A DNA stretch of 64,000 nucleotides from Elusimicrobiota bacterium (GTDB taxonomy: Bacteria; Elusimicrobiota; JBDRON01): NCBI GenBank assembly GCA_043810025.1, contig JBDRON010000056.1, positions 19,377-83,376 on the forward strand. Reading direction: 5' to 3'. The position numbers and the translations under genes are program-made. Below, piece by piece: positions 21,486-34,620 of the stretch; the stretch's first letter is position 1, and every line of letters begins with the position of its first letter. The notes beneath the pieces are model-generated. The model was not told the DNA's origin. It did not search any database and saw nothing but the letters and a program-made list of their open reading frames with translations.

Positions 21486-21593
21486 ACGGCAGCCTAAAAG
21501 CCTAAAAGGCTAAGAGTTATTAGCCCAAGAGTAAAGAATAAAAGCCTTTTTGGAGAAAATATGCTGACAAAAGAAAAAAGCAAGGAGACCTTG

Positions 21594-22368
21594 ATGAACA
21601 TTCATAAAACTGCTTTAGTCCATCCCGATGCGGTCATCGGTGAAGATGTGGAAATCGGTCCCTTTTCAATTATTGGGGGCGAGGTAAAAATTGGCAAGAA
21701 TACCCGGATTGGCGCCCATGTGGTAATTGAGGGAATAAGCGAGATCGGTGAGAATTGCCGGATATTTACCGGAGCAATCATTGGGAATTTCCCGCAGGAT
21801 TTAAAATATAAAGGGGGAAAAAACGAAAGTTGTGATCGGCAGCAACAATGTTATCCGCGAATATGTAACGATTAATCGGGGAACTGTGGCTGTGGGGGAA
21901 ACAAGAATCGGGGATAATTGTTTATTGATGGCTTATGTGCATATCGCTCACGATTGTTCCGTTGGTAACGGGGTAATTTTGGCGAATGTGGCTACTCTGG
22001 CCGGCCATGTGATAATTGAGGATAAGGCGGTCATCGGCGGGGTTACTCCAATCCATCAGTTTGTCCGGATTGGGACGATGGCCATCGTTGGCGGGGCCAG
22101 CCGGGTGGCTAAAGATGTGCCTCCTTATTGTATGGCGGCCGGTATGCCGATCCGGACATTCGGTTTAAATGTTGTCGGGTTACAGCGCAACGGAGTCTCT
22201 TCGGAGACTAGGGAACAGTTGAAGAAAGCTTACAAAACAGTTTTTCGTTCCAGCCTCAATGTCAGCGATGCGATCGCCGCTTTGGAGAGGGAAAGCAATC
22301 ATTGTGAAGAGGTTGCCTATTTTATTAATTTCATTAAACAATCCGAACGAGGGATATGCAAAGAGTAG
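21594..22368 (+). pseudogene. lpxA: acyl-ACP--UDP-GlcNAc O-acyltransferase LpxA, interrupted by a +1 frameshift in a G5 run (sequencing error or real pseudogene)
   Basis: Two overlapping ORFs (21561..21875, 21832..22368) together give a full LpxA. Deleting one G from GGGGG at 21813-21817 restores ...[29 protein letters not shown]... in one frame. Confidence 0.75.
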
Positions 22369-23287: not shown

Positions 23288-23316
23288 TTGACAATACAAG
23301 TTATAACTTGTATACT
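23288..23316 (+). promoter_or_regulatory. sigma70-like promoter TTGACA-17-TATACT with a palindromic operator (CAAGTTATAACTTG) in the spacer, upstream of higB-like/higA-like
   Basis: Consensus -35 at 23288-93, 17-nt spacer that is itself a perfect 14-bp palindrome, -10 TATACT at 23311-16. Confidence 0.5.
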
Positions 23317-23340: not shown

Positions 23341-23688
23341 ATGCTGAAAAATATCTATTATTTTGTAGATGAACGGGGTGATAACCCGGTTAGAGAATTT
23401 ATAGATTCTTTGCCGATTAAAGAACGGGCAAAGATATTTGCTTACATTGAAGAATTAAGAAATCAGGGTCACAATTTGCGTAGGCCGATAGCGGATTATT
23501 TAGGTAACGATATTTATGAACTAAGACCTAAAAGCAATAGAATCTTTTATTTCTTCTTTTTAAAAGATAACGCGGTTTTGGTTCATGCCATAAAAAAGAA
23601 GACGGACAAAATTCCCAATGCCGATTTAAACTTAAGTATAAAAAGAAAAGGGTTGGTTGAGGAGTATGAACGAGTAGAAAAAATATAA
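23341..23688 (+). CDS. type II toxin, HigB-like / phage-related Gp49 (RelE/ParE superfamily)
   Basis: 115 aa, MLKNIYYFVDERGDNPVREFIDSLPIKERAKI...; followed 8 nt later by an XRE HTH gene (toxin-first HigBA arrangement). Confidence 0.68.
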   Translation: MLKNIYYFVDERGDNPVREFIDSLPIKERAKIFAYIEELRNQGHNLRRPIADYLGNDIYELRPKSNRIFYFFFLKDNAVLVHAIKKKTDKIPNADLNLSIKRKGLVEEYERVEKI

Positions 23689-23704
23689 TAGTGAGGTGAG
23701 CGGG

Positions 23705-24031
23705 ATGAAAAAAATTAAATTAGAAAAAATCGACGACCATTTAAACGCGGAATTAAAGAATGAAGAATTCAGAAGGAATTTTGAATTAGAAAGAGCTAAA
23801 GTATCGTTGGCTCAAAAAATAGCGGAGCTGAGACAGGATAAAAAACTGAAACAAATTGATCTCGCCAAGAAACTGCATGTTTCGCAGCAATTCATTTCCC
23901 TGATTGAAACTGCGCAAGAAAAGAATTTGACTCTGGAAACTTTAGTAAAAATTGCCAAGTCCTTGGGAAGAAGTGTCAAAATTTCTTTCCCCAAAGCCTC
24001 TGCCCAAGGTGCTCATCTCAAGATAGCATAA
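23705..24031 (+). CDS. HigA-like antitoxin, XRE-family HTH DNA-binding protein
   Basis: HTH region LRQDKKLKQIDLAKKLHVSQQFISLIE; GAGGTG RBS before ATG 23705. Confidence 0.68.
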   Translation: MKKIKLEKIDDHLNAELKNEEFRRNFELERAKVSLAQKIAELRQDKKLKQIDLAKKLHVSQQFISLIETAQEKNLTLETLVKIAKSLGRSVKISFPKASAQGAHLKIA

Positions 24032-24119: not shown

Positions 24120-24593
24120 ATGAGTGAAGAAGAAAAATACGAGTACGATAGTAATATTTTGTCAATAAAGTATACAAAAATTACTGATACGATACCTGTT
24201 TCTGGTGCGAATACATCTACCAGTATATTTTGGGATCAAACAGAAATGCCTGATGCCGGAGTTCTTAAATTTTTAGAACCTTGTGGTCGGAATTGGAGAT
24301 TCGGAAAACTGGAAAATGAAATGAAGTATGTAGCGAGGGTGCACCACAAATTAAAATCAAATTCTAAAGGTAATTTCTATACTTTAATATGGAGTTGGAA
24401 AGATATTCATCAAGTAAAGGAGTGGCTTGAATTAGACGGTGTTGCAATAGACTTAAAAACAAAATTTGTTATTAGGCCAGGATGTTTAATCGCAATTGGG
24501 AATTTTAAGAAAAACAATAATCATCAAATTTATGTAAAAGAAAAAGAGGAATTTGTTCTTGAAATTACAGAAAGTACTACTAATATAGAATGA
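24120..24593 (+). CDS. hypothetical protein (ORF A of AT-rich island), translationally coupled to the next gene
   Basis: 157-aa ORF in a markedly AT-rich segment; 4-bp overlap (ATGA) with the downstream ORF; no recognisable motif. Confidence 0.5.
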   Translation: MSEEEKYEYDSNILSIKYTKITDTIPVSGANTSTSIFWDQTEMPDAGVLKFLEPCGRNWRFGKLENEMKYVARVHHKLKSNSKGNFYTLIWSWKDIHQVKEWLELDGVAIDLKTKFVIRPGCLIAIGNFKKNNNHQIYVKEKEEFVLEITESTTNIE

Positions 24594-25666
24594 AAACTTC
24601 TCCGATAAAACAATTACCAAACAATGACTATTTAATAAATCCTGGTGCTTCATTTGAAATGCATCTTTATAATACCGACATCAATACCGTAACCGAACTA
24701 GTTAATATTATGAAAAAAGGTGAGGAAGAAGGATCAGGAACTGGCGTTGTTAACTGTAAATTGTTGGAATTACTAGTAAAAAATAATGTTAGATGCCGTG
24801 AAATTGATTCTTATGTAAATGAATTTCGGCCACAATATATTCAAAATCTAAAAACATATTCTGGATTAAATGTTGACTGGCAGAGTATTAATGAAATTGA
24901 TATAAGTAGTATTCCAGAAGAAATCAGAAAAAAAGCAGTTGATGAGTTGCGCATAAAACCAGACACTAATATAGAGGTTTTGTTTAAACTTTATCCTTGT
25001 GATGATTCTGTGCCGATAGAAGTATTTAGGAAGTATCCCTTTAAAGTTATAGTAAAATATCTTAATGTTTGGGATCGGGGCAAAGAATTGAAAGTTATTC
25101 CTCTGGAACACCGAGATAGAAAAATTTACGAGAAAATGGTTGAATTGAATCTGTCTATGCAAGGGGAAGCAATTCCGCTTAAAGATATATTAGTGACTTT
25201 GAAATTATCTGAATTAAAGGAAATCGGTTTAAAGGTAAATACAGAGCCATCAAATAAGAAAGAAAAAGTTATTGAAAATTTACTGAGCAAAGAAGGTGTT
25301 GAAAAACAAATTCAAGGTAGTATTAATCTTAAAGACTATTTTAAACTTATTTCTATCGAACGAGAGTTTGGCTCCGATATATTCAGTAAATTAAATTCAT
25401 CCATTAAATATAATGAACTTAATGCAGACTTAATTGGGAGAACTTTTTTATTCTCTTATTACAATGATTCTAGGGATAATTCCTGGTCGAATCCAATATC
25501 TTCTGAACTAATCACAGGATATGAAATTTCAATGGTTTCCGATGCAAGATGTTGCCCTTACTGTAAAGATATGAAAGGAAAAAAGTTTGACAAAGTTAAT
25601 TGTCCTAAAATACCATTGCATTTGGCTTGTCGATGTGCGAAAGTCCCGCTAACAAAATATGGCTAA
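24590..25666 (+). CDS. hypothetical protein (ORF B) with SAP-like helix-extended-helix motif and C-terminal Mu-F/SPP1-gp7-like zinc-ribbon motif (CxYC...PLHxxCRC)
   Basis: 358 aa; LKDILVTLKLSELKEIGLKVNT...KKEKVIENLLSK resembles a SAP DNA-binding motif; C-terminus CCPYCKDMKGKKFDKVNCPKIPLHLACRCAKVPL resembles the conserved end of phage head-morphogenesis (Mu F) domains. Confidence 0.5.
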   Translation: MKTSPIKQLPNNDYLINPGASFEMHLYNTDINTVTELVNIMKKGEEEGSGTGVVNCKLLELLVKNNVRCREIDSYVNEFRPQYIQNLKTYSGLNVDWQSINEIDISSIPEEIRKKAVDELRIKPDTNIEVLFKLYPCDDSVPIEVFRKYPFKVIVKYLNVWDRGKELKVIPLEHRDRKIYEKMVELNLSMQGEAIPLKDILVTLKLSELKEIGLKVNTEPSNKKEKVIENLLSKEGVEKQIQGSINLKDYFKLISIEREFGSDIFSKLNSSIKYNELNADLIGRTFLFSYYNDSRDNSWSNPISSELITGYEISMVSDARCCPYCKDMKGKKFDKVNCPKIPLHLACRCAKVPLTKYG

Positions 25667-25702: not shown

Positions 25703-26155
25703 ATGTCGGGATCATTTTTATACATTGGAATTCATTTTATTTTTAGTACAAAAAATCGTGTGAACATAATTACTAGCGAAATAAAAGATAGGTTGTATTC
25801 CTATATTGGCGGAATAATAAAATCAATTAAAGGTATACCAATTGCTATAAATGGAATGCCTGATCATATCCATGTTTTTTGTATTGTATCACGGGAAATG
25901 ACCATTGCTGATTTTATGCGTATTGTTAAATCAAATTCATCAAAATGGTTGAATGAAACTTTTCCTGTTAAGCCAAAATTCCAATGGCAAGACGGATACG
26001 GTTCGTTTTCAGTCACTAAATCATCAGAAAATAAAATCATTGAATATGTAAAAAATCAAGAAGAACATCATAAACAAAAATCATTTCAGGATGAATTTAT
26101 TGAATATTTAAGATTGATGAAAATTGACTATGATGAAAGATATATATGGCAATAA
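25703..26155 (+). mobile_element. tnpA: IS200/IS605-family Y1 HUH transposase (TnpA) / REP-associated tyrosine transposase (RAYT)-like, solitary
   Basis: 150 aa; HUH motif MPDHIHVFCIV; C-terminal catalytic Tyr in EYVKNQEEHH (Y-x-x-NQ motif of IS200 TnpA/RAYT); no tnpB partner. Confidence 0.75.
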
Positions 26156-26400
26156 TACTCCGCCGCCCCGTTGGGGCTTATATTTTCATGGGTGATTATA
26201 GCGGGGATTACATCCCCGCCTATAATCCGCAATCCCTTCGGGATAATAAATTGAAAAAGATTGTAGTATGCTTTTATTTGTCCTGAAAGGACAACGGAAT
26301 ATAGGCGGGGGGCTTGCCCCCCGAAAATGAAATATTCCATGAACGATAAGCCCTGAAAGGGCGGAGGAAAAGCGCCCAAATTATTTATAAATTTTCAGTG
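26156..26400 (+). other. structured GC-rich hairpin cluster downstream of tnpA (possible IS end / REP-like hairpins / small RNA)
   Basis: Hairpins TATAGCGGGGATTACATCCCCGCCTATA (26195-26225), GTCCTGAAAGGAC, GGCGGGGGGCTTGCCCCCCG (about 26300-26322), GCCCTGAAAGGGC; the outer complement CTCCGCCGCCCC...GGGCGGAG frames the region. Confidence 0.45.
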
Positions 26401-26592: not shown

Positions 26593-27498
26593 ATGAAAAA
26601 TTTTTTTGAGAAAAATAAAATATTCTTGGGTATAATTATAGCCGGTTTGATGATTGCCGCAGCTATTTATTTTGGTTTAAATAAGCCGGCTGATAAAGAA
26701 AAATATTTATCATTATCGTCCTCGCCGTCTCCTGCCCAAAGTTTGGCGCCGGCTGAGGCTCTTGTCACTAAAGTTATCGATGGTGATACGATAATTGTTG
26801 AAGGCGGTTATAATGTCCGGCTTTTGGGTATTGATGCTGATGAGGCGGGTTATCCCTGTTACGAAGCAGCCAAAAAACGCTTAGAAGAATTGATTTTAAA
26901 TAAAACGGTGAGATTGGAAAAAGACCAAACCGATGTTGACCAATATAAAAGATATTTGAGGTATATTTTTCTTGACGACAAAAATATATGTTTAGAGTTG
27001 GTAAAAGAAGGCTTGGCAATTGCCAGATTTTATGAGCCGGATAGAAAATACAAAAACGAGATTGTTTCCGGCGAAAAAGAAGCGATTGAGAAAAAAGTTG
27101 GTTGCAAATGGTCCGCTTCCACCAATGTTTCGGCGGATAAATTATCTTACGAAAAAAACGAATTCTCCTATGAGAAATTAACCACGGGGAAGACCGGTTT
27201 AAAAGTAGTTGGCGCTTACCAATCAGGGAATTATTACGGAAGAGAAGTCATTGTGGAAGGAAAAGTAGTTGGCGCTTATCGCTCAAAAACAAATATAGTT
27301 TTCTTAAATTTTGATAAAACCTATCCCAATCAATATTTTGTCGGAGTTATTTTTAGTTCAGACCAGTATAAGTTTGTTGAGGCGCCGGAAAAATATTATG
27401 CGGGAAAAACCGTTAGAATCAAAGGAAAAATTAAGGAGTATCGCGGCAAACCGGAAATTATTATAAAAGACCCTTCCCAGATTGAGATAGGAAAATAA
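26593..27498 (+). CDS. membrane-anchored thermonuclease (SNase-like) with C-terminal OB-fold domain
   Basis: N-terminal TM; SNase core VIDGDTIIVEGGYNVRLLGIDADE...RYLRYIFLDDKN...; C-terminal OB-fold-like repeat (KVVGAY...KGKIKEYRGKPEIIIKD). Confidence 0.72.
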   Translation: MKNFFEKNKIFLGIIIAGLMIAAAIYFGLNKPADKEKYLSLSSSPSPAQSLAPAEALVTKVIDGDTIIVEGGYNVRLLGIDADEAGYPCYEAAKKRLEELILNKTVRLEKDQTDVDQYKRYLRYIFLDDKNICLELVKEGLAIARFYEPDRKYKNEIVSGEKEAIEKKVGCKWSASTNVSADKLSYEKNEFSYEKLTTGKTGLKVVGAYQSGNYYGREVIVEGKVVGAYRSKTNIVFLNFDKTYPNQYFVGVIFSSDQYKFVEAPEKYYAGKTVRIKGKIKEYRGKPEIIIKDPSQIEIGK

Positions 27499-27735: not shown

Positions 27736-27764
27736 TGTATATAACTGCGCATAATTAAAGGGAC
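27736..27764. repeat. left arm of a 29-bp perfect inverted repeat (TATATAACTGCGCATAATTAAAGGGACAT)
   Basis: Exact reverse complement found at 27958-27986; the pair flanks a 193-bp segment containing Family A copy A3. Confidence 0.8.
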
Positions 27765-27817
27765 ATCAGCAAAAGTGTCATAGCAACGAAAGCTGGTATC
27801 CAGAAAGTGTGATATAC

Positions 27818-27957
27818 AGAAATTTGAATGTTTGTTTTGCGTATATTCCCCCTTAAAAAAGGGGGACACAGGGGGATTTTGAAAATTAGAAATATTGTCT
27901 AAATCTCCCCTACCCCTCTTTTTAAAAGAGGGGAAAAAATACCACAGAACGAAACTC
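27818..27957 (+). repeat. Family A triple-hairpin element, copy A3 (inside the 29-bp IR pair)
   Basis: GAAATTTGAATGTTTGTTTTGCGTATATT-CCCCCTTAAAAAAGGGGG-ACACAGGGGGATTTTGAAAATTAGAAATATTGTCTAAATCTCCCCTA-CCCCTCTTTTTAAAAGAGGGG-AAAAAATACCACAG. Confidence 0.7.
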
Positions 27958-27986
27958 ATGTCCCTTTAATTATGCGCAGTTATATA
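27958..27986. repeat. right arm of the 29-bp perfect inverted repeat; contains the start codon of the downstream wHTH gene
   Basis: ATGTCCCTTTAATTATGCGCAGTTATATA; ATG 27972 (MRSYIVEK...) lies inside it. Confidence 0.8.
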
Positions 27987-28196
27987 GTCGAAAAAATAGA
28001 GGATAAAAACATAATTGTAGTTGATGTAAATGAATCTATTTATTTAAGAGAACATAAAGAAATAACTAGAAATGAATGTATGGAATTATTGAATTTAACG
28101 AGAGATATTGCAATTAGAGAACTTTTATCGTTGAAGAGAAAGGGAATTATTAAACAAATTGGTAAAGGGAAGAACATTTATTATGTACTTGTCTAA
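27972..28196 (+). CDS. small winged-helix DNA-binding protein (possibly a gene fragment)
   Basis: 74 aa; ...ITRNECMELLNLTRDIAIRELLSLKRKGIIKQIGKGKNIYYVL resembles C-terminal wHTH domains of Fic/AAA-type regulators; the start is embedded in the inverted repeat. Confidence 0.4.
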   Translation: MRSYIVEKIEDKNIIVVDVNESIYLREHKEITRNECMELLNLTRDIAIRELLSLKRKGIIKQIGKGKNIYYVLV

Positions 28197-30437: not shown

Positions 30438-32162
30438 ATGTATTCACGGTTAGCAAAGTATTTTCGGCCTTATTTAGCGCGGTTTTTGCAGGCGGTGGTC
30501 TGTATGCTTTTAGTTGCCGGCTTAACTGCTTTGTCAATGTGGATTTTGCGCGATGTCATCGATAAAATATTTATTGCTAAAAACCAAAAAATGCTGTTCT
30601 GGGTTGCCGGAGCCGTGCCGGCGATTTTTTTATTGAAAGCGATTTTCTCTTATATTCAAACTTATTTGATTGCTTATATCGGCCAGCAGATCATTAAGAC
30701 TCTGCGCAACGAATTATTTAATCATCTCCAGAAACTTTCCCTGGATTTTTACCATCGTAACCCCAGCGGCAAGATTATGGCCCGCCTGACCAACGATGTG
30801 CAAACATTACAGAATGCGATCACCCATGTGCCGTTGTATTTTATTCGTGACGGCTTTACGATAATTTTCCTGGCCGGGTTTCTTTTTTATCTGAATTGGC
30901 AATTTGCTTTGATTACGCCAATCGCGATTCTGGTTGCCGGCTGGCCGATTGTCCTCTTTGGCAAGAAACTGCGCAGTGTTGGCCGGCATGGCCAGCAAAA
31001 AATGAGCGATGTTTACACCTCGCTTCAGGAGAATGTCAGCGGGGTAATGGTGATTAAGGCTTTTAATATGGAGGATTACGAGCGGGAGAAGTTCACCCGG
31101 GAAAACCAGAACTATTTCAATATTGTGATGCGTTCCTTACGGGTGGAGGCGCTTTCCACTCCGGTTATGGAACTTATTGGGGCGGTCTCGATAACGATAA
31201 TTATTTTCTGGGGCGGCTGGGATGTAATTAAAGGGGTATGGACCGCGGGATCTTTTTTTGCTTTTTTGGGAGCTTGCTGGTCCACATATAATCCAATCAA
31301 GAATTTTGCCCAAATGAACAACAATGTCCAACAGGCTTTGTCGGCGGTGGAACGAATTTTTTCCTTGCTCGATGAGAAACCAAAAATCCAGGAAGTTGAC
31401 CATCCGATACAGCTGTGCCCGATCGAGCAGGAGATTCGGTTTCAAGATATCTGGTTTTCTTACTACCCTGGTGAATATATTCTAAAAGACATAAATTTTA
31501 TTATCAATAAAGGCGAGGTTGCGGCGCTAGTCGGCCCTTCCGGCGTAGGGAAAACCACCTTGATTAATTTATTGGCGCGGTTTTACGATCCGGTGCAAGG
31601 AGCAATTTTCATTGACGGTATCGATATCCGGCAAGCCGGCAAGAAATCGTTGTATGAGCAGATTGGGATAGTCACCCAGGAGACGATTCTTTTTAACGAT
31701 ACAATTTACAACAACATCGCCTACGGGCGCTGGGGAGCGTCGGATAAAGAAGTGGAGACCGCCGCTCAAATGGCTAACGCCCATGAATTTATTGGCCGGC
31801 TTCCCCAGGGTTATGGCACTTTTGTCGGTGAGCGGGGGGTGCTGTTGTCCGGCGGTCAAAAACAACGGATCGCCATCGCCCGGGCGATCCTAAAAAAACC
31901 TTCTATTTTAATTCTGGATGAAGCCACCTCCAATCTGGATACCGAATCGGAAAAACTAGTCCAGGAGGCTTTAGAACGGTTAATGGTCCGGCAAACCACT
32001 CTGGTAATTGCCCACCGTCTTTCCACGATCGCCCGCGCCGATAAAATAGTGGTTTTTAACCATGGCCGGATCGCCCAGATCGGCCGCCATCAGGAACTTT
32101 TAAAACAAGAAGGAATATACAAAAAACTTTTTGAACTCCAGTTTTCCAAAACCACAATTTGA
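30438..32162 (+). CDS. msbA: lipid A export ABC transporter permease/ATP-binding protein MsbA
   Basis: 574 aa; six TM + NBD with Walker A GPSGVGKTT, signature LSGGQKQRIAIARA, Walker B ILILDEATS. Confidence 0.85.
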   Translation: MYSRLAKYFRPYLARFLQAVVCMLLVAGLTALSMWILRDVIDKIFIAKNQKMLFWVAGAVPAIFLLKAIFSYIQTYLIAYIGQQIIKTLRNELFNHLQKLSLDFYHRNPSGKIMARLTNDVQTLQNAITHVPLYFIRDGFTIIFLAGFLFYLNWQFALITPIAILVAGWPIVLFGKKLRSVGRHGQQKMSDVYTSLQENVSGVMVIKAFNMEDYEREKFTRENQNYFNIVMRSLRVEALSTPVMELIGAVSITIIIFWGGWDVIKGVWTAGSFFAFLGACWSTYNPIKNFAQMNNNVQQALSAVERIFSLLDEKPKIQEVDHPIQLCPIEQEIRFQDIWFSYYPGEYILKDINFIINKGEVAALVGPSGVGKTTLINLLARFYDPVQGAIFIDGIDIRQAGKKSLYEQIGIVTQETILFNDTIYNNIAYGRWGASDKEVETAAQMANAHEFIGRLPQGYGTFVGERGVLLSGGQKQRIAIARAILKKPSILILDEATSNLDTESEKLVQEALERLMVRQTTLVIAHRLSTIARADKIVVFNHGRIAQIGRHQELLKQEGIYKKLFELQFSKTTI

Positions 32163-32383
32163 ACCGGTAACACCAGACCAGCCTCAACCTCGTCCCGATG
32201 CCCCTCTCCCCAGTAAGGGAAATTTTAAATGGGCTAATAATTTTGTTAATGGGTTAATAAATAGGGTAATATCGAAGTTGCTGCTTACCAAGAAAAAAAT
32301 TACTTTAATTGTCGTTAGTAGGGCAATTACACAACGTTGGTAGCCCAATAAATTGGGCAATTACTCTATTAAGGTAGACCACG

Positions 32384-32947
32384 CTAAATTGACTGATCGG
32401 TTAATTTTGGGATACCGAATTCTTTCTCTTTAATCATTTTTATATTTTTTTGGTTATCCCTGGAAAATATTTCAGTACTGAGCATAGTTAAACTAATTCC
32501 AAACATAATCATAAATACCGTGGCTATGTTAAAAAATTTCGCAGGTTTTGCTGTTATATTTTTCTGAAATTCGTGTTCAGATGTTTTCTGAAAAATCGGC
32601 AGGGTTAAAACATCAAATCCCAGACTTTGCCAATGAGGATAATCAATTTTTGCATATTCCAGATCGTCTTCCGAGCAGACCAGCAGCCCTCCCCGAATTA
32701 AGGACGGAGACAATTCTTCTAGTAATTGGGACACAAGATTCCATGGATTGGTCAGATAGACATAAACATTCTGACAGAATATGATATCCAATCTATTCAT
32801 TCGTTTTTTTTGGTGTTCATTTGTTATATTCAAAAACTCAAAATTTACCATTTTTTTAACTTTATCCTTCACCTGATAATATTCCGTTGCTTGGGGAAAG
32901 GGTAAAAAATATTCATTTACTATACTAGGCGGGTCAAAAAAGACCAT
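32384..32947 (-). CDS. CheR-like SAM-dependent methyltransferase C-terminal fragment with C-terminal TM segment (probably truncated)
   Basis: LDIIFCQNVYVYL and GGLLV motifs typical of CheR/class I MTase post-motif I regions; lacks a GxGxG N-terminus; AT-rich island. Confidence 0.3.
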   Translation of the reverse strand: MVFFDPPSIVNEYFLPFPQATEYYQVKDKVKKMVNFEFLNITNEHQKKRMNRLDIIFCQNVYVYLTNPWNLVSQLLEELSPSLIRGGLLVCSEDDLEYAKIDYPHWQSLGFDVLTLPIFQKTSEHEFQKNITAKPAKFFNIATVFMIMFGISLTMLSTEIFSRDNQKNIKMIKEKEFGIPKLTDQSI

Positions 32948-33598
32948 GAATTAATGAAAATTAGAGCAGCGATCGATTGGAGTTTTGTCGAAACTATGAC
33001 GCGTGAATTGTCTCGTGTTTTAATAGGAGTTTTATTTCATTGTAGATTCTTGTATCTTCTGTTTCGCCTGACAGTTTCATTGCCCAATCGAGTAGATATT
33101 TCTTATCCAGTTTGCCTGAATTTTTAATGGCGATACTTTCTGCATCGGCGATGTCTTTCGGTTTTCCGGGAATTATTTTCAGTAAAATCAAATCTTCAGG
33201 TGTGGGCAGATTTTTCTTTATTGAGAAATGTTACGATTTTTTTAAATACTTCAATTAAATTCATCTCTTTGCCTTTAACAGTAACTCATAACTTAAAGGT
33301 GTGTCTTTAATAAAATCACTTCCATGATGGTCGAAAAAAATCAACAAGGATTTTTGCAACTCTTCCTAGTTATTATACGCAATAGTTCAAGGATAGTAAA
33401 GAAATTTAAATTACAGAAATTTCCAGTTGTCCCTTTAGCAATATTGTATTACATACTTATTGTCGATGATAACTACGGATTGCTTCGTCACTTCGCTTCT
33501 CGCAATGACACTTCTGGCGGCTTTTCGAGCAGGAACTATGTCTGGCCCAGCTTTAAACTTTATAAAGTTTTACCGTATTTGACATTCTTTATAAAGTT

Positions 33599-34543
33599 AT
33601 GTATATTTTAAATATGGATATAAAAGAAAAACTTACTCTGATTAAAAGGTTGTCGAGGAAGACACAGGAAAAGCTGGCGGCTGAACTCGGGGTTTCTTTC
33701 CCGACGCTGAACAGCTGGATTAACGGAAAATCTGTTCCGCGCAAAGATGCGCAACGATTGATTGATGAGTTATACCTGCGTCTGATCGGACAGAATATAA
33801 TTCCTCAAACGCTGATTGAAGCAAAGAAGTTGGGAATATTAAATAAGCGGCTGGAGTATCCGAAAATTTTGCGCTTATTGCAAGACCGAAAAGATCTATA
33901 TGATCAATTTTTGCTTTCGCTAACCTATAATACCAACCGCATTGAGGGGAGCACATTAACCGAACCGGAAACGGCGGCAATCCTTTTCCAAAATGCCGCT
34001 CTGCCGGACAAATCCATTATTGAGCAGATGGAAGTAAAAAATCATCAGGCGGCTTTCCAATACATGATCCGGCATTTGGCTGGAGGGGGGGGAATTTCGG
34101 AAGAATTCATTCTTAGAATGCATGCTATCTTGATGAACGGGATCAGGGAAGACGTCGGACAGTATCGCCGGCACGGGGTGCGAATAGTCGGTTCTAATCT
34201 TCCGACTGCCAATTATCTGAAAGTGCCGGCGTTGATGCAAATCCTGATTGAGGAAATTTTTAAGGGTGAAAAAGATATCATCGGCTTGGTTACCCGTATT
34301 CACAGCCGTTTTGAGCAAATCCATCCTTTTTCCGACGGAAACGGTCGGATAGGCCGCTTACTGTTGACCGCGATGCTTTTAAAAGAAAACCTGCCGCCAG
34401 CGATTATTCCACAAGCGCAAAGACGATACTATATTCTCTACCTGAATCAATCCCAAACCCGGAATGATTATAGCCGTTTGGAAGATTTTATCAGCGATGC
34501 AATTCTGTCCGGCTATGATCTTTTGAACGAAAAATCATTGTAG
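33599..34543 (+). CDS. Fic/DOC-family protein with N-terminal HTH
   Basis: Fic motif HPFSDGNGRIGR; N-terminal HTH-like LSRKTQEKLAAELGVSFPTLNSWINGKSVP. Confidence 0.85.
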   Translation: MYILNMDIKEKLTLIKRLSRKTQEKLAAELGVSFPTLNSWINGKSVPRKDAQRLIDELYLRLIGQNIIPQTLIEAKKLGILNKRLEYPKILRLLQDRKDLYDQFLLSLTYNTNRIEGSTLTEPETAAILFQNAALPDKSIIEQMEVKNHQAAFQYMIRHLAGGGGISEEFILRMHAILMNGIREDVGQYRRHGVRIVGSNLPTANYLKVPALMQILIEEIFKGEKDIIGLVTRIHSRFEQIHPFSDGNGRIGRLLLTAMLLKENLPPAIIPQAQRRYYILYLNQSQTRNDYSRLEDFISDAILSGYDLLNEKSL

Positions 34544-34620
34544 GGGCAGGACAGGCTAAGGTATGAGCGGTAATGTGGATGCCTTTCTAAAGATGTTTTA
34601 GGATGTTTTTTAGTAACTAC

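What the first reader, a model, noticed from the sequence alone, without database searches (positions are those of the whole stretch)
24590..25666. ORF B combines a SAP-like motif with a C-terminal Mu-F/SPP1-gp7-like CxxC...PLHxxCRC zinc-ribbon signature
The C-terminus CCPYCKDMKGKKFDKVNCPKIPLHLACRCAKVPL mirrors the conserved end of phage head-morphogenesis (Mu F) domains (...TCxxC...G.V...PPxHPNCRC...P). Those domains are otherwise known from phage minor capsid proteins and as carrier domains of polymorphic/ADP-ribosylating toxins. The mid-region LKDILVTLKLSELKEIGLKVNT...KKEKVIENLLSK looks like a SAP helix-extended-helix DNA-binding motif. A chromosomal, non-prophage protein combining these, coupled to a small partner ORF next to a TA pair, is unusual. 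It may be a toxin/effector-like or DNA-targeting component.
Basis: partly seen in the sequence, partly recalled or inferred. Interest (0 to 1): 0.6.

Follow-up and report, generated by a model that had tools for sequence, protein, structure and literature searches.

The report
Cellular MuF-like, SAP-containing DNA-binding protein
This 358-residue gene, in a small foreign-DNA islet of an Elusimicrobiota genome, belongs to an undescribed but widespread protein family that joins a FAN1/SAP-like DNA-binding body to the zinc-binding core of a phage head protein (MuF/gp7); its relatives are mostly membrane-anchored and sometimes fused to, or next to, nucleases, and its function is untested.

Summary
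ORF B (24590-25666, +, 358 aa) is intact and overlaps ORF A by ATGA. Its last ~90 residues are a remote but real relative of the phage MuF/SPP1-gp7 core. This rests on TIGR01641 (E 1.6e-6, below cutoff), tblastn to phage minor head proteins (best 6e-6), and Foldseek hits to viral minor capsid proteins. The SAP-like motif is supported by the predicted fold only, not by any sequence profile.

It is not a prophage remnant or a toxin carrier. An exhaustive HMM search found 235 cluster representatives (E<=1e-10) that match over the full length. None has a Pfam, NCBIfam or PADLOC family covering the body.

- About 72% of full-length representatives have an N-terminal membrane anchor; ORF B lacks one.
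- Rare members are fused to SNase, HIRAN or a FAN1-type VRR-NUC nuclease.
- Three of about 21 informative loci place the gene next to a membrane-embedded Mre11/Rad50-like (SbcE/SbcF-type) pair, in three different gene orders.
- No relative lies next to portal or terminase genes.

The closest solved structure to the AlphaFold model (pLDDT 93.5) is FAN1, at modest scores.

Best reading: a non-catalytic DNA-recognition subunit that works with nucleases on DNA ends at or near the membrane. ORF A is an orphan. Function is inferred, not shown.

The parts
24590..25666 (+). ORF B, 358 aa. A soluble (no membrane anchor) member of an uncharacterised family of about 400 aa.
   Evidence: ORF. Full-length family. 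AlphaFold model with pLDDT 93.5 and pTM 0.89. The near-invariant family residues E71, Y157, R177, G192, K224, F251, T285, C322, P342, H344, C347 and C349 are all kept.
24590..25174 (+). N-terminal body of ORF B (residues 1-195): a helical bundle followed by an alpha/beta, winged-helix-like region.
25178..25321 (+). SAP-like helix, extended loop, helix (residues 197-244; core helices 206-215 and 224-233; near-invariant K224).
   Evidence: There is no Pfam SAP hit, so this rests on the predicted fold.
25391..25651 (+). MuF/SPP1-gp7-type core (residues 268-354), preceded by a long helix (264-298).
   Evidence: TIGR01641 E 1.6e-6. PHROG minor head proteins. tblastn to phage minor head proteins. 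hhalign. Foldseek against BFVD.
25553..25636 (+). Putative zinc site, C322-x2-C325 ... P342-x-H344-x2-C347-x-C349.
   Evidence: Conservation across 107 relatives: C322 99, C325 76, P342 107, H344 105, C347 106, C349 103. Metal binding is inferred, not tested.
24120..24593 (+). ORF A, 157 aa, with a 4-nt ATGA overlap onto ORF B and the same GC content (0.312). It is an orphan.
   Evidence: Only itself was found among 5.8 billion proteins. No similarity to neighbours of relatives. No family hit.
23341..23688 (+). Context: Gp49/HigB-like toxin gene.
   Evidence: Pfam Gp49 E 1.8e-20, above cutoff.
23696..24031 (+). Context: HTH_3 (XRE-type) antitoxin or regulator gene.
   Evidence: Pfam HTH_3 E 2.5e-12, above cutoff.
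25703..26155 (+). Context: IS200/IS605-family Y1 transposase gene, 37 nt after ORF B.
   Evidence: Pfam Y1_Tnp 2.3e-26. NCBIfam transpos_IS200 69 bits against a cutoff of 55.
26593..27498 (+). Context: membrane-anchored SNase + OB-fold nuclease. This is a possible functional neighbour, because one family member is a SNase-TM-family fusion.
   Evidence: Pfam SNase 5.9e-16. The P0021 fusion is shown. The link is inferred from one fusion only.

Best explanation
ORF B is a soluble member of a previously undescribed prokaryotic protein family.

**Family body (about 350 aa).** It has three parts:
- an N-terminal helical / winged-helix region plus a SAP-type helix-loop-helix, whose nearest solved relative is the DNA-binding N-terminal part of the nuclease FAN1;
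- a long connecting helix;
- a Cys3His zinc-ribbon core homologous to the conserved core of the phage head proteins MuF/SPP1 gp7.

**Most likely role.** The body is a non-catalytic DNA-recognition module for DNA ends or branched DNA that brings nucleases to their substrate.
- In most relatives an N-terminal membrane helix anchors it on the cytoplasmic face of the inner membrane.
- In some relatives it is fused to a nuclease or a DNA-end-binding domain (FAN1-type VRR-NUC, SNase, HIRAN).
- In others it is encoded next to a membrane-embedded Mre11/Rad50-like (SbcE/SbcF-type) pair.
- The likely substrate is DNA at or entering through the membrane, for defence against incoming DNA or for break repair and DNA uptake.

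**In this window.** The gene was acquired horizontally together with the orphan ORF A, inside a small mobile islet that also holds a HigB-like/HTH pair, IS200 and a SNase nuclease.

**Shown versus inferred.**
- Shown: the anatomy, the homologies, the family's existence, the non-phage context, the fusions and the neighbours.
- Inferred: DNA binding, zinc binding, partnership with nucleases, and the biological role.
For: **Family.** The HMM search returned 435 representatives at E<=1e-3, 235 at <=1e-10 and 124 at <=1e-30, matching over the full length.

**MuF core.**

**Fusions.**
- P0034 is the family body plus a FAN1-type nuclease module (E 1.8e-19 to human FAN1).
- P0021 is signal peptide + SNase + TM + body.
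- P0057 is HIRAN + body.

**Membrane anchor.** 81 of 113 representatives of >=370 aa have an N-terminal hydrophobic segment.

**Neighbours.**
- Among 94 neighbour proteins, the most recurrent Pfam families are Metallophos (3) and AAA_23/AAA_27 (3).
- These pairs occur in L003, L026 and L029 in three different gene orders. Each Rad50-like protein has a central hydrophobic segment.
- L026 also has an SF1 helicase-nuclease directly upstream.
- L009 has xseA directly upstream.

**Published background.** SPP1 gp7, the best-studied MuF protein, is described as a DNA-binding protein (PMC5576092 reference list). SbcE/SbcF act in break repair and transformation at the DNA-uptake pole (PMC2811018).

**Horizontal acquisition.** GC is 0.31 against 0.46-0.47 in the flanks. 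The closest relatives are in an ANME-1 archaeon.
Against: - There is no experimental datum for any member.
- No SAP profile hit exists.
- The nuclease association covers a minority of loci: 3 of about 21 with useful flanks. Most relatives sit alone in unrelated neighbourhoods.
- ORF B itself has no membrane anchor, no Mre11/Rad50-like gene anywhere in the 64 kb window, and deviates at several well-conserved positions (D107S, R191Q, G346A).
- Conserved acidic and basic residues in the N-terminal body (E71, D104, R177, E181) leave room for an unrecognised enzymatic activity.
- No PADLOC defence model matches.
Confidence: 0.45

Rival explanations
1. Host-encoded mimic of the phage head-completion protein. 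The MuF-like core, held at the inner membrane, recognises something that phage MuF/gp7 normally contacts (the portal, or the DNA end that travels with it). It thereby senses or blocks genome injection, recruiting nucleases where these are present. On this reading the family is an anti-phage system, and ORF A + ORF B is a soluble two-gene variant.
For: - The MuF core is otherwise almost confined to phage packaging modules. 96% of muf genes in bacterial genomes lie in prophages or remnants (PMC5576092).
- Most relatives are membrane-anchored.
- The phyletic spread is patchy, across bacterial phyla and ANME-1 archaea.
- Neighbours suggest mobile or defence DNA:
  - a low-GC islet with a TA pair and IS200 in the window;
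  - a Type IIG restriction-modification methylase beside the ANME-1 homologue;
  - an IS66 fragment and a Y1 transposase near others.
- A precedent exists for membrane-localised DNA-targeting defence: SNIPE has a TM helix, a DNA-binding domain and a nuclease (bioRxiv 10.1101/2025.11.03.685801).
Against: - No PADLOC model hits the family.
- Most relatives lie among housekeeping genes rather than in defence islands.
- ORF B lacks the anchor.
- Nothing shows that the MuF core, rather than other parts of gp7, contacts the portal.
Confidence: 0.17
2. An enzyme with an unrecognised activity. The conserved polar residues of the N-terminal body (E71, D104/D107, R177, E181, K224) would form an active site, for example a new nuclease or a DNA-modifying enzyme. 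The SAP and zinc-ribbon parts would serve only for substrate binding.
For: These residues are kept in 81-101 of 107 relatives. Most members carry no separate catalytic domain and no conserved partner, yet the family is maintained as a solitary gene.
Against: No fold or profile match to any catalytic domain was found. Nuclease domains are added by fusion in some members, which suggests the body itself lacks that activity.
Confidence: 0.12
3. Nucleoid-associated protein or transcriptional regulator. A winged-helix plus SAP DNA-binding protein that regulates the islet, or tethers DNA to the membrane in anchored relatives, with no nuclease link.
Confidence: 0.1
4. Prophage remnant: a decayed minor capsid (MuF) gene left behind by a lost phage.
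For: The C-terminal core is homologous to phage MuF proteins. The islet has foreign composition and carries a transposase.
Against: - No portal, terminase or other virion gene is nearby.
- Canonical phage relatives sit directly after the portal gene.
- ORF B is intact and keeps all near-invariant residues of a full-length family with 235+ cluster representatives, found in non-phage contexts.
- No relative was found in IMG/VR.
- No phage record covers >=80% of the protein.
Confidence: 0.04
5. MuF-type polymorphic toxin or effector carrier, with ORF A as partner or immunity protein.
For: MuF domains do carry toxin domains in temperate phages (PMC5576092 and PMC5512222). A TA pair lies next door.
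Against: - In those toxins the MuF domain is N-terminal and the toxin C-terminal, with the immunity gene downstream.
- Here the MuF core is the extreme C-terminus, no toxin domain is detected, and the downstream gene is an IS200 transposase.
- ORF A is upstream and is an orphan.
Confidence: 0.04

Closest known systems
Phage MuF / SPP1 gp7 minor capsid (head morphogenesis) proteins (Pfam PF04233, TIGR01641)
   Same: They share a core of about 85 residues: a helix with an A-x-x-I-x-R-T motif, then a beta-hairpin region with C..C ... P-x-H-x-x-C-R-C. Evidence comes from TIGR01641 (E 1.6e-6), tblastn (6e-6), hhalign (1.9e-4) and Foldseek hits to viral minor capsid proteins. gp7 is described as a DNA-binding protein (references cited in PMC5576092).
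   Different: - Scores are below both curated cutoffs.
- The core is C-terminal, not followed by anything.
- The N-terminal 260 residues have no detectable phage counterpart by sequence.
- The gene is never next to a portal or terminase gene, whereas canonical muf genes are (PMC5576092).
- Most relatives are membrane-anchored cellular proteins.
FAN1 (Fanconi-associated nuclease 1) and its bacterial homologues
SAP domains (PIAS1, Ku70, DEK, SAF-A; Pfam PF02037)
   Different: There is no significant profile match (E about 1). The motif is embedded in a larger fold rather than being a free module.
SbcE/SbcF (YhaN/YhaO) and SbcC/SbcD, Mre11/Rad50 nuclease complexes
   Same: These are not homologues of ORF B, but they are the only recurrent neighbours of the family (3 loci). 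The Rad50-like partners match AAA_23/AAA_27 and have a hydrophobic central segment, as described for SbcE (PMC2811018).
   Different: No such genes occur in this window. Orthology of the neighbours to B. subtilis SbcE/SbcF was not tested beyond the Pfam hits and the architecture.
SNIPE (membrane-bound anti-phage nuclease) and Zorya: membrane-localised DNA-targeting defence
   Same: Typical family members share an architectural logic with SNIPE. SNIPE has an N-out single membrane helix, then a cytoplasmic DNA-binding domain, then a nuclease (bioRxiv 10.1101/2025.11.03.685801). In the family the nuclease is fused in only a few members.
   Different: There is no sequence or domain relationship: SNIPE has DUF4041 and GIY-YIG. 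ORF B lacks both an anchor and a nuclease. This is an analogy only.
MuF polymorphic toxins of temperate phages
   Same: They share the MuF core.
   Different: The domain order is opposite. ORF B has no toxin domain, no immunity gene and no prophage.

Membership tests
MuF / SPP1 gp7 (PF04233, TIGR01641) | Profile match at or above the curated cutoff | tested here: not met
   PF04233 gives 14.9 bits against 29.6. TIGR01641 gives 28.5 bits against 39.65.
MuF / SPP1 gp7 (PF04233, TIGR01641) | Statistically significant similarity of the core to bona fide phage MuF proteins | tested here: met
   TIGR01641 E 1.6e-6, with 26 of 107 relatives hit. tblastn 6e-6 to a phage head morphogenesis protein. hhalign 1.9e-4. 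Foldseek against BFVD 2.2e-5.
MuF / SPP1 gp7 (PF04233, TIGR01641) | Gene lies in the phage packaging/head module, typically directly after the portal gene (PMC5576092) | tested here: not met
   The window has lpx genes, a TA pair and IS200 around the gene. None of about 40 related loci has a portal or terminase neighbour. Phage controls do.
MuF / SPP1 gp7 (PF04233, TIGR01641) | Virion incorporation through portal binding | not testable with these tools
   Needs biochemistry or virion proteomics.
SAP domain (PF02037) | Profile match | tested here: not met
   No hit for ORF B at E<=1. None in 107 relatives at E<=0.01. 2rno is hit only at E about 1.
SAP domain (PF02037) | Helix, extended loop, helix fold | tested here: met
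SAP domain (PF02037) | DNA binding | not testable with these tools
   Needs EMSA or a similar assay.
FAN1 | C-terminal VRR-NUC nuclease domain with the preceding TPR region | tested here: not met
   Absent from ORF B. Present in family member P0034.
FAN1 | N-terminal DNA-binding region (NTD + SAP) of the same fold | tested here: inconclusive
MuF polymorphic toxin | Toxin domain C-terminal to MuF, plus a downstream immunity gene | tested here: not met
   The protein ends 9 residues after C349. The next gene is an IS200 transposase.
Known anti-phage defence systems (PADLOC v2) | Match to any defence protein model | tested here: not met
   No hit for ORF A or ORF B. There is no consistent hit among 107 relatives.
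New family (ORF B relatives) | Full-length match with the near-invariant residues E71, Y157, R177, G192, K224, F251, T285, C322, P342, H344, C347 and C349 | tested here: met
New family (ORF B relatives) | N-terminal membrane anchor (72% of full-length representatives) | tested here: not met
   ORF B and its closest relatives (P0002, P0003, P0005) have none.

The most novel reading that the evidence does not exclude
The family is a host-encoded, usually membrane-anchored copy of the phage head-completion (MuF/gp7) core, joined to a FAN1-like DNA-binding module. It recognises the leading end of DNA entering through the inner membrane, or the phage proteins that travel with that DNA. It then hands the DNA to nucleases: SbcE/SbcF-like, VRR-NUC or SNase. 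This would be a new class of injection-site immunity, or of DNA-uptake processing. ORF A + ORF B would be a soluble two-gene variant of it.
Probability: 0.15. Interest if true: 0.85.

Novelty: new variant of a known kind. Interest (0 to 1): 0.6.

Why it matters
**What is new about the MuF core.** The MuF/gp7 core is among the commoner conserved domains of tailed phages (35% of the Caudovirales genomes surveyed), yet its function is still described as unknown (PMC5576092). Here the same core appears in a sizeable cellular family that has nothing to do with virions. It is always joined to a predicted DNA-binding body. It is repeatedly combined with nucleases, either by fusion or by gene neighbourhood, and usually with a membrane anchor.

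**Two testable ideas follow.**
- The MuF core is a zinc-dependent module for handling DNA ends or nucleic acid, rather than a purely structural head component.
- Prokaryotes have a so-far unnamed partner for membrane-embedded Mre11/Rad50-like (SbcE/SbcF-type) nucleases. This partner would act on DNA at the membrane, in defence against incoming DNA, in repair, or in DNA uptake.

**Database gap.** The family is absent from Pfam, NCBIfam and PADLOC, so it currently goes unannotated in genomes.

Tried and rejected
**Searches that found nothing or failed.**
- The first AlphaFold run, with a 3-sequence alignment, was unusable (pLDDT 44). It was repeated with 107 sequences.
- The word-index homologue search found only two relatives. 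A repeat with the 107-sequence profile was swamped and returned 4 proteins. The exhaustive HMM search was what revealed the family.
A narrower sub-alignment worked.
- The AFDB50 library was not available.
- Sequence searches of the PDB found nothing meaningful, using ORF B, the family profile or the SAP-region profile.
- Rfam found nothing in 22-30 kb.
- There were no relatives in IMG/VR or in plasmids.

**ORF A.** It has no homologue, no family hit and no PDB hit. It shows no similarity to N-terminal extensions of relatives or to their neighbours. The idea that ORF A + ORF B is a conserved pair, or a split gene, was therefore dropped.

**Readings considered and rejected.**
- Prophage remnant and toxin carrier (see rival explanations).
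- A conserved link to Y1 transposases, seen in only 2 loci.
- Direct repeats as islet boundaries; only short, probably chance, repeats were found.

**Weak evidence, not relied on.** Promoter-like sites are no more frequent than in shuffled sequence. The single-operon idea for the TA pair, ORF A, ORF B and tnpA is therefore only a weak suggestion.
Full report
**1. What is in the sequence**

ORF B runs from 24590 to 25666 on the + strand (ATG start, 358 aa). ORF A (24120-24593, 157 aa) ends in a TGA that overlaps the ATG of ORF B, giving an ATGA overlap.

The pair lies in a roughly 5 kb low-GC stretch. ORF A is 0.312 GC and ORF B 0.313, against 0.46-0.47 in the flanking genes. This stretch interrupts a lipid A gene cluster. 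Read by eye, the cluster is lpxD, an lpxC-fabZ fusion and lpxA. It continues with a DUF1009/lpxI-like gene upstream, and a Gfo/Idh/MocA gene, lpxB and msbA downstream.

The islet contains, in order:
- a Gp49/HigB-like toxin gene;
- an XRE-type HTH gene;
- ORF A and ORF B;
- an IS200/IS605 transposase gene, 37 nt after ORF B;
- a membrane-anchored SNase + OB nuclease gene;
- a small winged-helix ORF.

The identical protein is on record as a hypothetical protein of an Elusimicrobiota MAG. No virion gene is nearby.

**2. Is the MuF resemblance real?**

Yes, but it is remote and limited to about 85-90 residues.
- Pfam Phage_Mu_F alone is not convincing (E 0.046, 14.9 bits, cutoff 29.6).
- NCBIfam TIGR01641, the SPP1 gp7 domain, matches residues 268-354 almost end to end (profile positions 22-108 of 109) at E 1.6e-6. 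This is still below the curated cutoff. It also matches 26 of 107 relatives, best 1.1e-11.
- Several PHROG minor-head / head-morphogenesis families hit the same stretch, best 5.2e-6.
- tblastn against 50,697 phage genomes gives 187 weak hits. In the 15 listed, the match lies in the C-terminal third to half of ORF B. Of those 15, 10 fall under genes annotated minor head or head morphogenesis and 1 under a portal-annotated gene. Best is 6e-6, with 35% identity over residues 275-356. No record covers 80% of the protein.
- Two of these phage genes were inspected. Both sit directly after the portal gene, the canonical MuF position.
- hhalign of the family profile against one of them aligns 80 columns at E 1.9e-4. 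The alignment includes the A-x-x-I-x-R-T helix and the P-x-H-x-x-C-R-C end.
- Foldseek of the model against predicted viral structures returns mainly minor capsid / head morphogenesis proteins, best 2.2e-5.

Across 107 relatives the candidate zinc ligands are kept: C322 in 99, H344 in 105, C347 in 106 and C349 in 103. P342 is invariant, and C325 is kept in 76.

**3. Is the SAP resemblance real?**

Only at the level of the predicted fold.
- No Pfam SAP hit exists for ORF B (E<=1) or for any of 107 relatives (E<=0.01).
- A profile of the region finds a plant SAP domain (2rno) in register, but at E about 1.
- The AlphaFold model built with the 107-sequence alignment is confident (pLDDT 93.5, pTM 0.89). 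It shows helix 206-215, a loop, and helix 224-233.
- K224, at the start of the second helix, is kept in 98 of 107 relatives.

**4. What the protein belongs to**

The word-index search found only two relatives. The exhaustive HMM search found 435 cluster representatives at E<=1e-3, 235 at <=1e-10 and 124 at <=1e-30. Nearly all match over the whole length.

No Pfam, NCBIfam or PADLOC family covers the body. The sources call members 'hypothetical protein'.

By a simple hydropathy scan, 81 of 113 representatives of >=370 aa start with a membrane helix followed by basic residues. That topology puts the body in the cytoplasm. ORF B and its nearest relatives lack this helix. Those relatives are 36-39% identical, and one comes from an ANME-1 archaeon.

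Three clades carry extra domains:
- P0021: signal peptide + SNase + membrane helix + body.
- P0057: HIRAN + body.
- P0034: body + a C-terminal module that matches the FAN1 nuclease region at E 1.8e-19.

**5. Genomic company of the family**

I collected about 40 independent loci, about 21 of them with at least 3 kb of flank.
- None has a portal or terminase gene.
- No relative was found in IMG/VR or in plasmids.
- Most members are solitary genes in unrelated neighbourhoods: beside flagellar export genes, Lon, a 2-oxoacid dehydrogenase E2 gene, and so on.
- A Pfam census of 94 neighbours shows one recurrent theme, Metallophos (3) together with AAA_23/AAA_27/SMC_N (3).
- These are Mre11/SbcD-like and Rad50/SbcC-like pairs in L003, L026 and L029. 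They are arranged in three different orders relative to the family gene. Each Rad50-like protein has a hydrophobic segment in the middle of its coiled coil.
- That architecture is the one described for B. subtilis SbcE (YhaN) with SbcF (YhaO). These act in double-strand-break repair and transformation, and gather at the DNA-uptake pole (PMC2811018).
- L026 also has an SF1 helicase-nuclease directly upstream. L009 has xseA directly upstream. The ANME-1 homologue follows a Type IIG restriction-modification methylase.
- The window itself has no Mre11/Rad50-like gene.

**6. ORF A**

ORF A has the same composition as ORF B and is translationally coupled to it. It has no homologue among 5.8 billion proteins and no family or PDB match. 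It shows no similarity to any neighbour or N-terminal extension of relatives. The A + B pairing is therefore lineage-specific. The role of ORF A is unknown.

**7. How it most likely works**

- Shown: the domain anatomy, the homology of the core to MuF, the existence and breadth of the family, the non-phage context, the nuclease fusions and the Mre11/Rad50-like neighbours.
- Inferred: the body binds DNA through its winged-helix/SAP region and its zinc-ribbon core. Ends or branched structures are the likely targets, by analogy with FAN1, HIRAN and gp7. It then serves as the recognition subunit for nucleases.
- In anchored relatives this would happen at the inner membrane, so the substrate could be DNA entering the cell or broken DNA near the membrane.
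- The extracytoplasmic SNase in the P0021 fusion and the SNase gene 0.9 kb downstream of ORF B fit this picture. That link rests on one fusion and one neighbourhood only.
- I put this explanation at about 0.45.

Rivals are an injection-site anti-phage mimic of MuF (0.17), an unrecognised enzyme (0.12), a regulator or nucleoid protein (0.10), a prophage remnant (0.04) and a toxin carrier (0.04).

**8. Comparison with what is known, and novelty**

- The core is a MuF relative, but the protein fails two defining features of MuF proteins: the curated score and the position next to the portal gene. I do not file it as a MuF protein.
- It is FAN1-like in fold but lacks the nuclease.
- It is SAP-like in fold but not by profile.
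- It resembles SNIPE only in architectural logic.

It is best described as a new variant: a cellular family that re-uses the MuF core together with a FAN1/SAP-like DNA-binding body. The interest lies in a possible handle on the long-unknown function of the MuF core, and in a candidate partner for membrane-embedded Mre11/Rad50-like nucleases. All functional statements remain to be tested.

Noticed in passing
window 21561-22368: lpxA appears split into two overlapping ORFs in different frames: 21561-21875 (104 aa) and 21832-22368 (178 aa). This is either a frameshift (pseudogene) or an assembly error in the MAG.
   Followed up: no
window 27738-27986: A 32-nt inverted repeat, 97% complementary, with arms 185 nt apart. 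The right arm overlaps the start of a 74-aa winged-helix ORF (27972-28196). It may be a small mobile element or an operator.
   Followed up: no
window 25703-26310: An IS200/IS605-family Y1 transposase gene lies 37 nt after ORF B, followed by hairpins at 26165-26177 and 26214-26310. A Y1 transposase also lies about 1 kb from the family gene in the unrelated locus L009 (10245-10715).
   Followed up: partly
window 26593-27498: A membrane-anchored SNase + OB-fold nuclease with an internal 60-nt tandem duplication (27201 / 27261). Family member P0021 fuses such a SNase to the family body through a membrane helix.
   Followed up: partly
window 32000-34600: A second low-GC patch (0.37) after msbA holds an HTH + Fic-domain protein (33599-34543, motif HPFSDGNGRIGR). 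It is probably another small acquired element.
   Followed up: no
L003 1386-3455; L026 7172-9970; L029 8386-11154: These Rad50/SbcC-like ATPases have a hydrophobic, probably membrane-inserted, segment at the apex of the coiled coil instead of a zinc hook. Each is paired with an Mre11/SbcD-like phosphoesterase. They resemble B. subtilis SbcE/SbcF and appear in both archaeal-like and bacterial metagenome contigs.
   Followed up: partly
L007 487-3370 and L001 65-973: In ANME-1 archaeal contigs, the closest relative of ORF B follows a Type IIG restriction-modification methylase and a 496-aa coiled-coil protein. The C-terminus of that protein looks like a PD-(D/E)xK nuclease (D...EIK) but has no family hit.
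   Followed up: partly
L026 2191-5613: A 1140-aa protein with an RNase_H_2-type exonuclease domain plus SF1 helicase domains lies directly upstream of the family gene. The SbcE/SbcF-like pair is convergent downstream, so this is a compact DNA-processing cluster.
   Followed up: no
window 23288-23316 and 26165-26177: A near-consensus sigma-70-like site (11 of 12) precedes the HigB-like gene, and no terminator-like hairpin occurs until after the transposase gene. The TA pair, ORF A, ORF B and tnpA could therefore be co-transcribed. This is a consensus match only.
   Followed up: no
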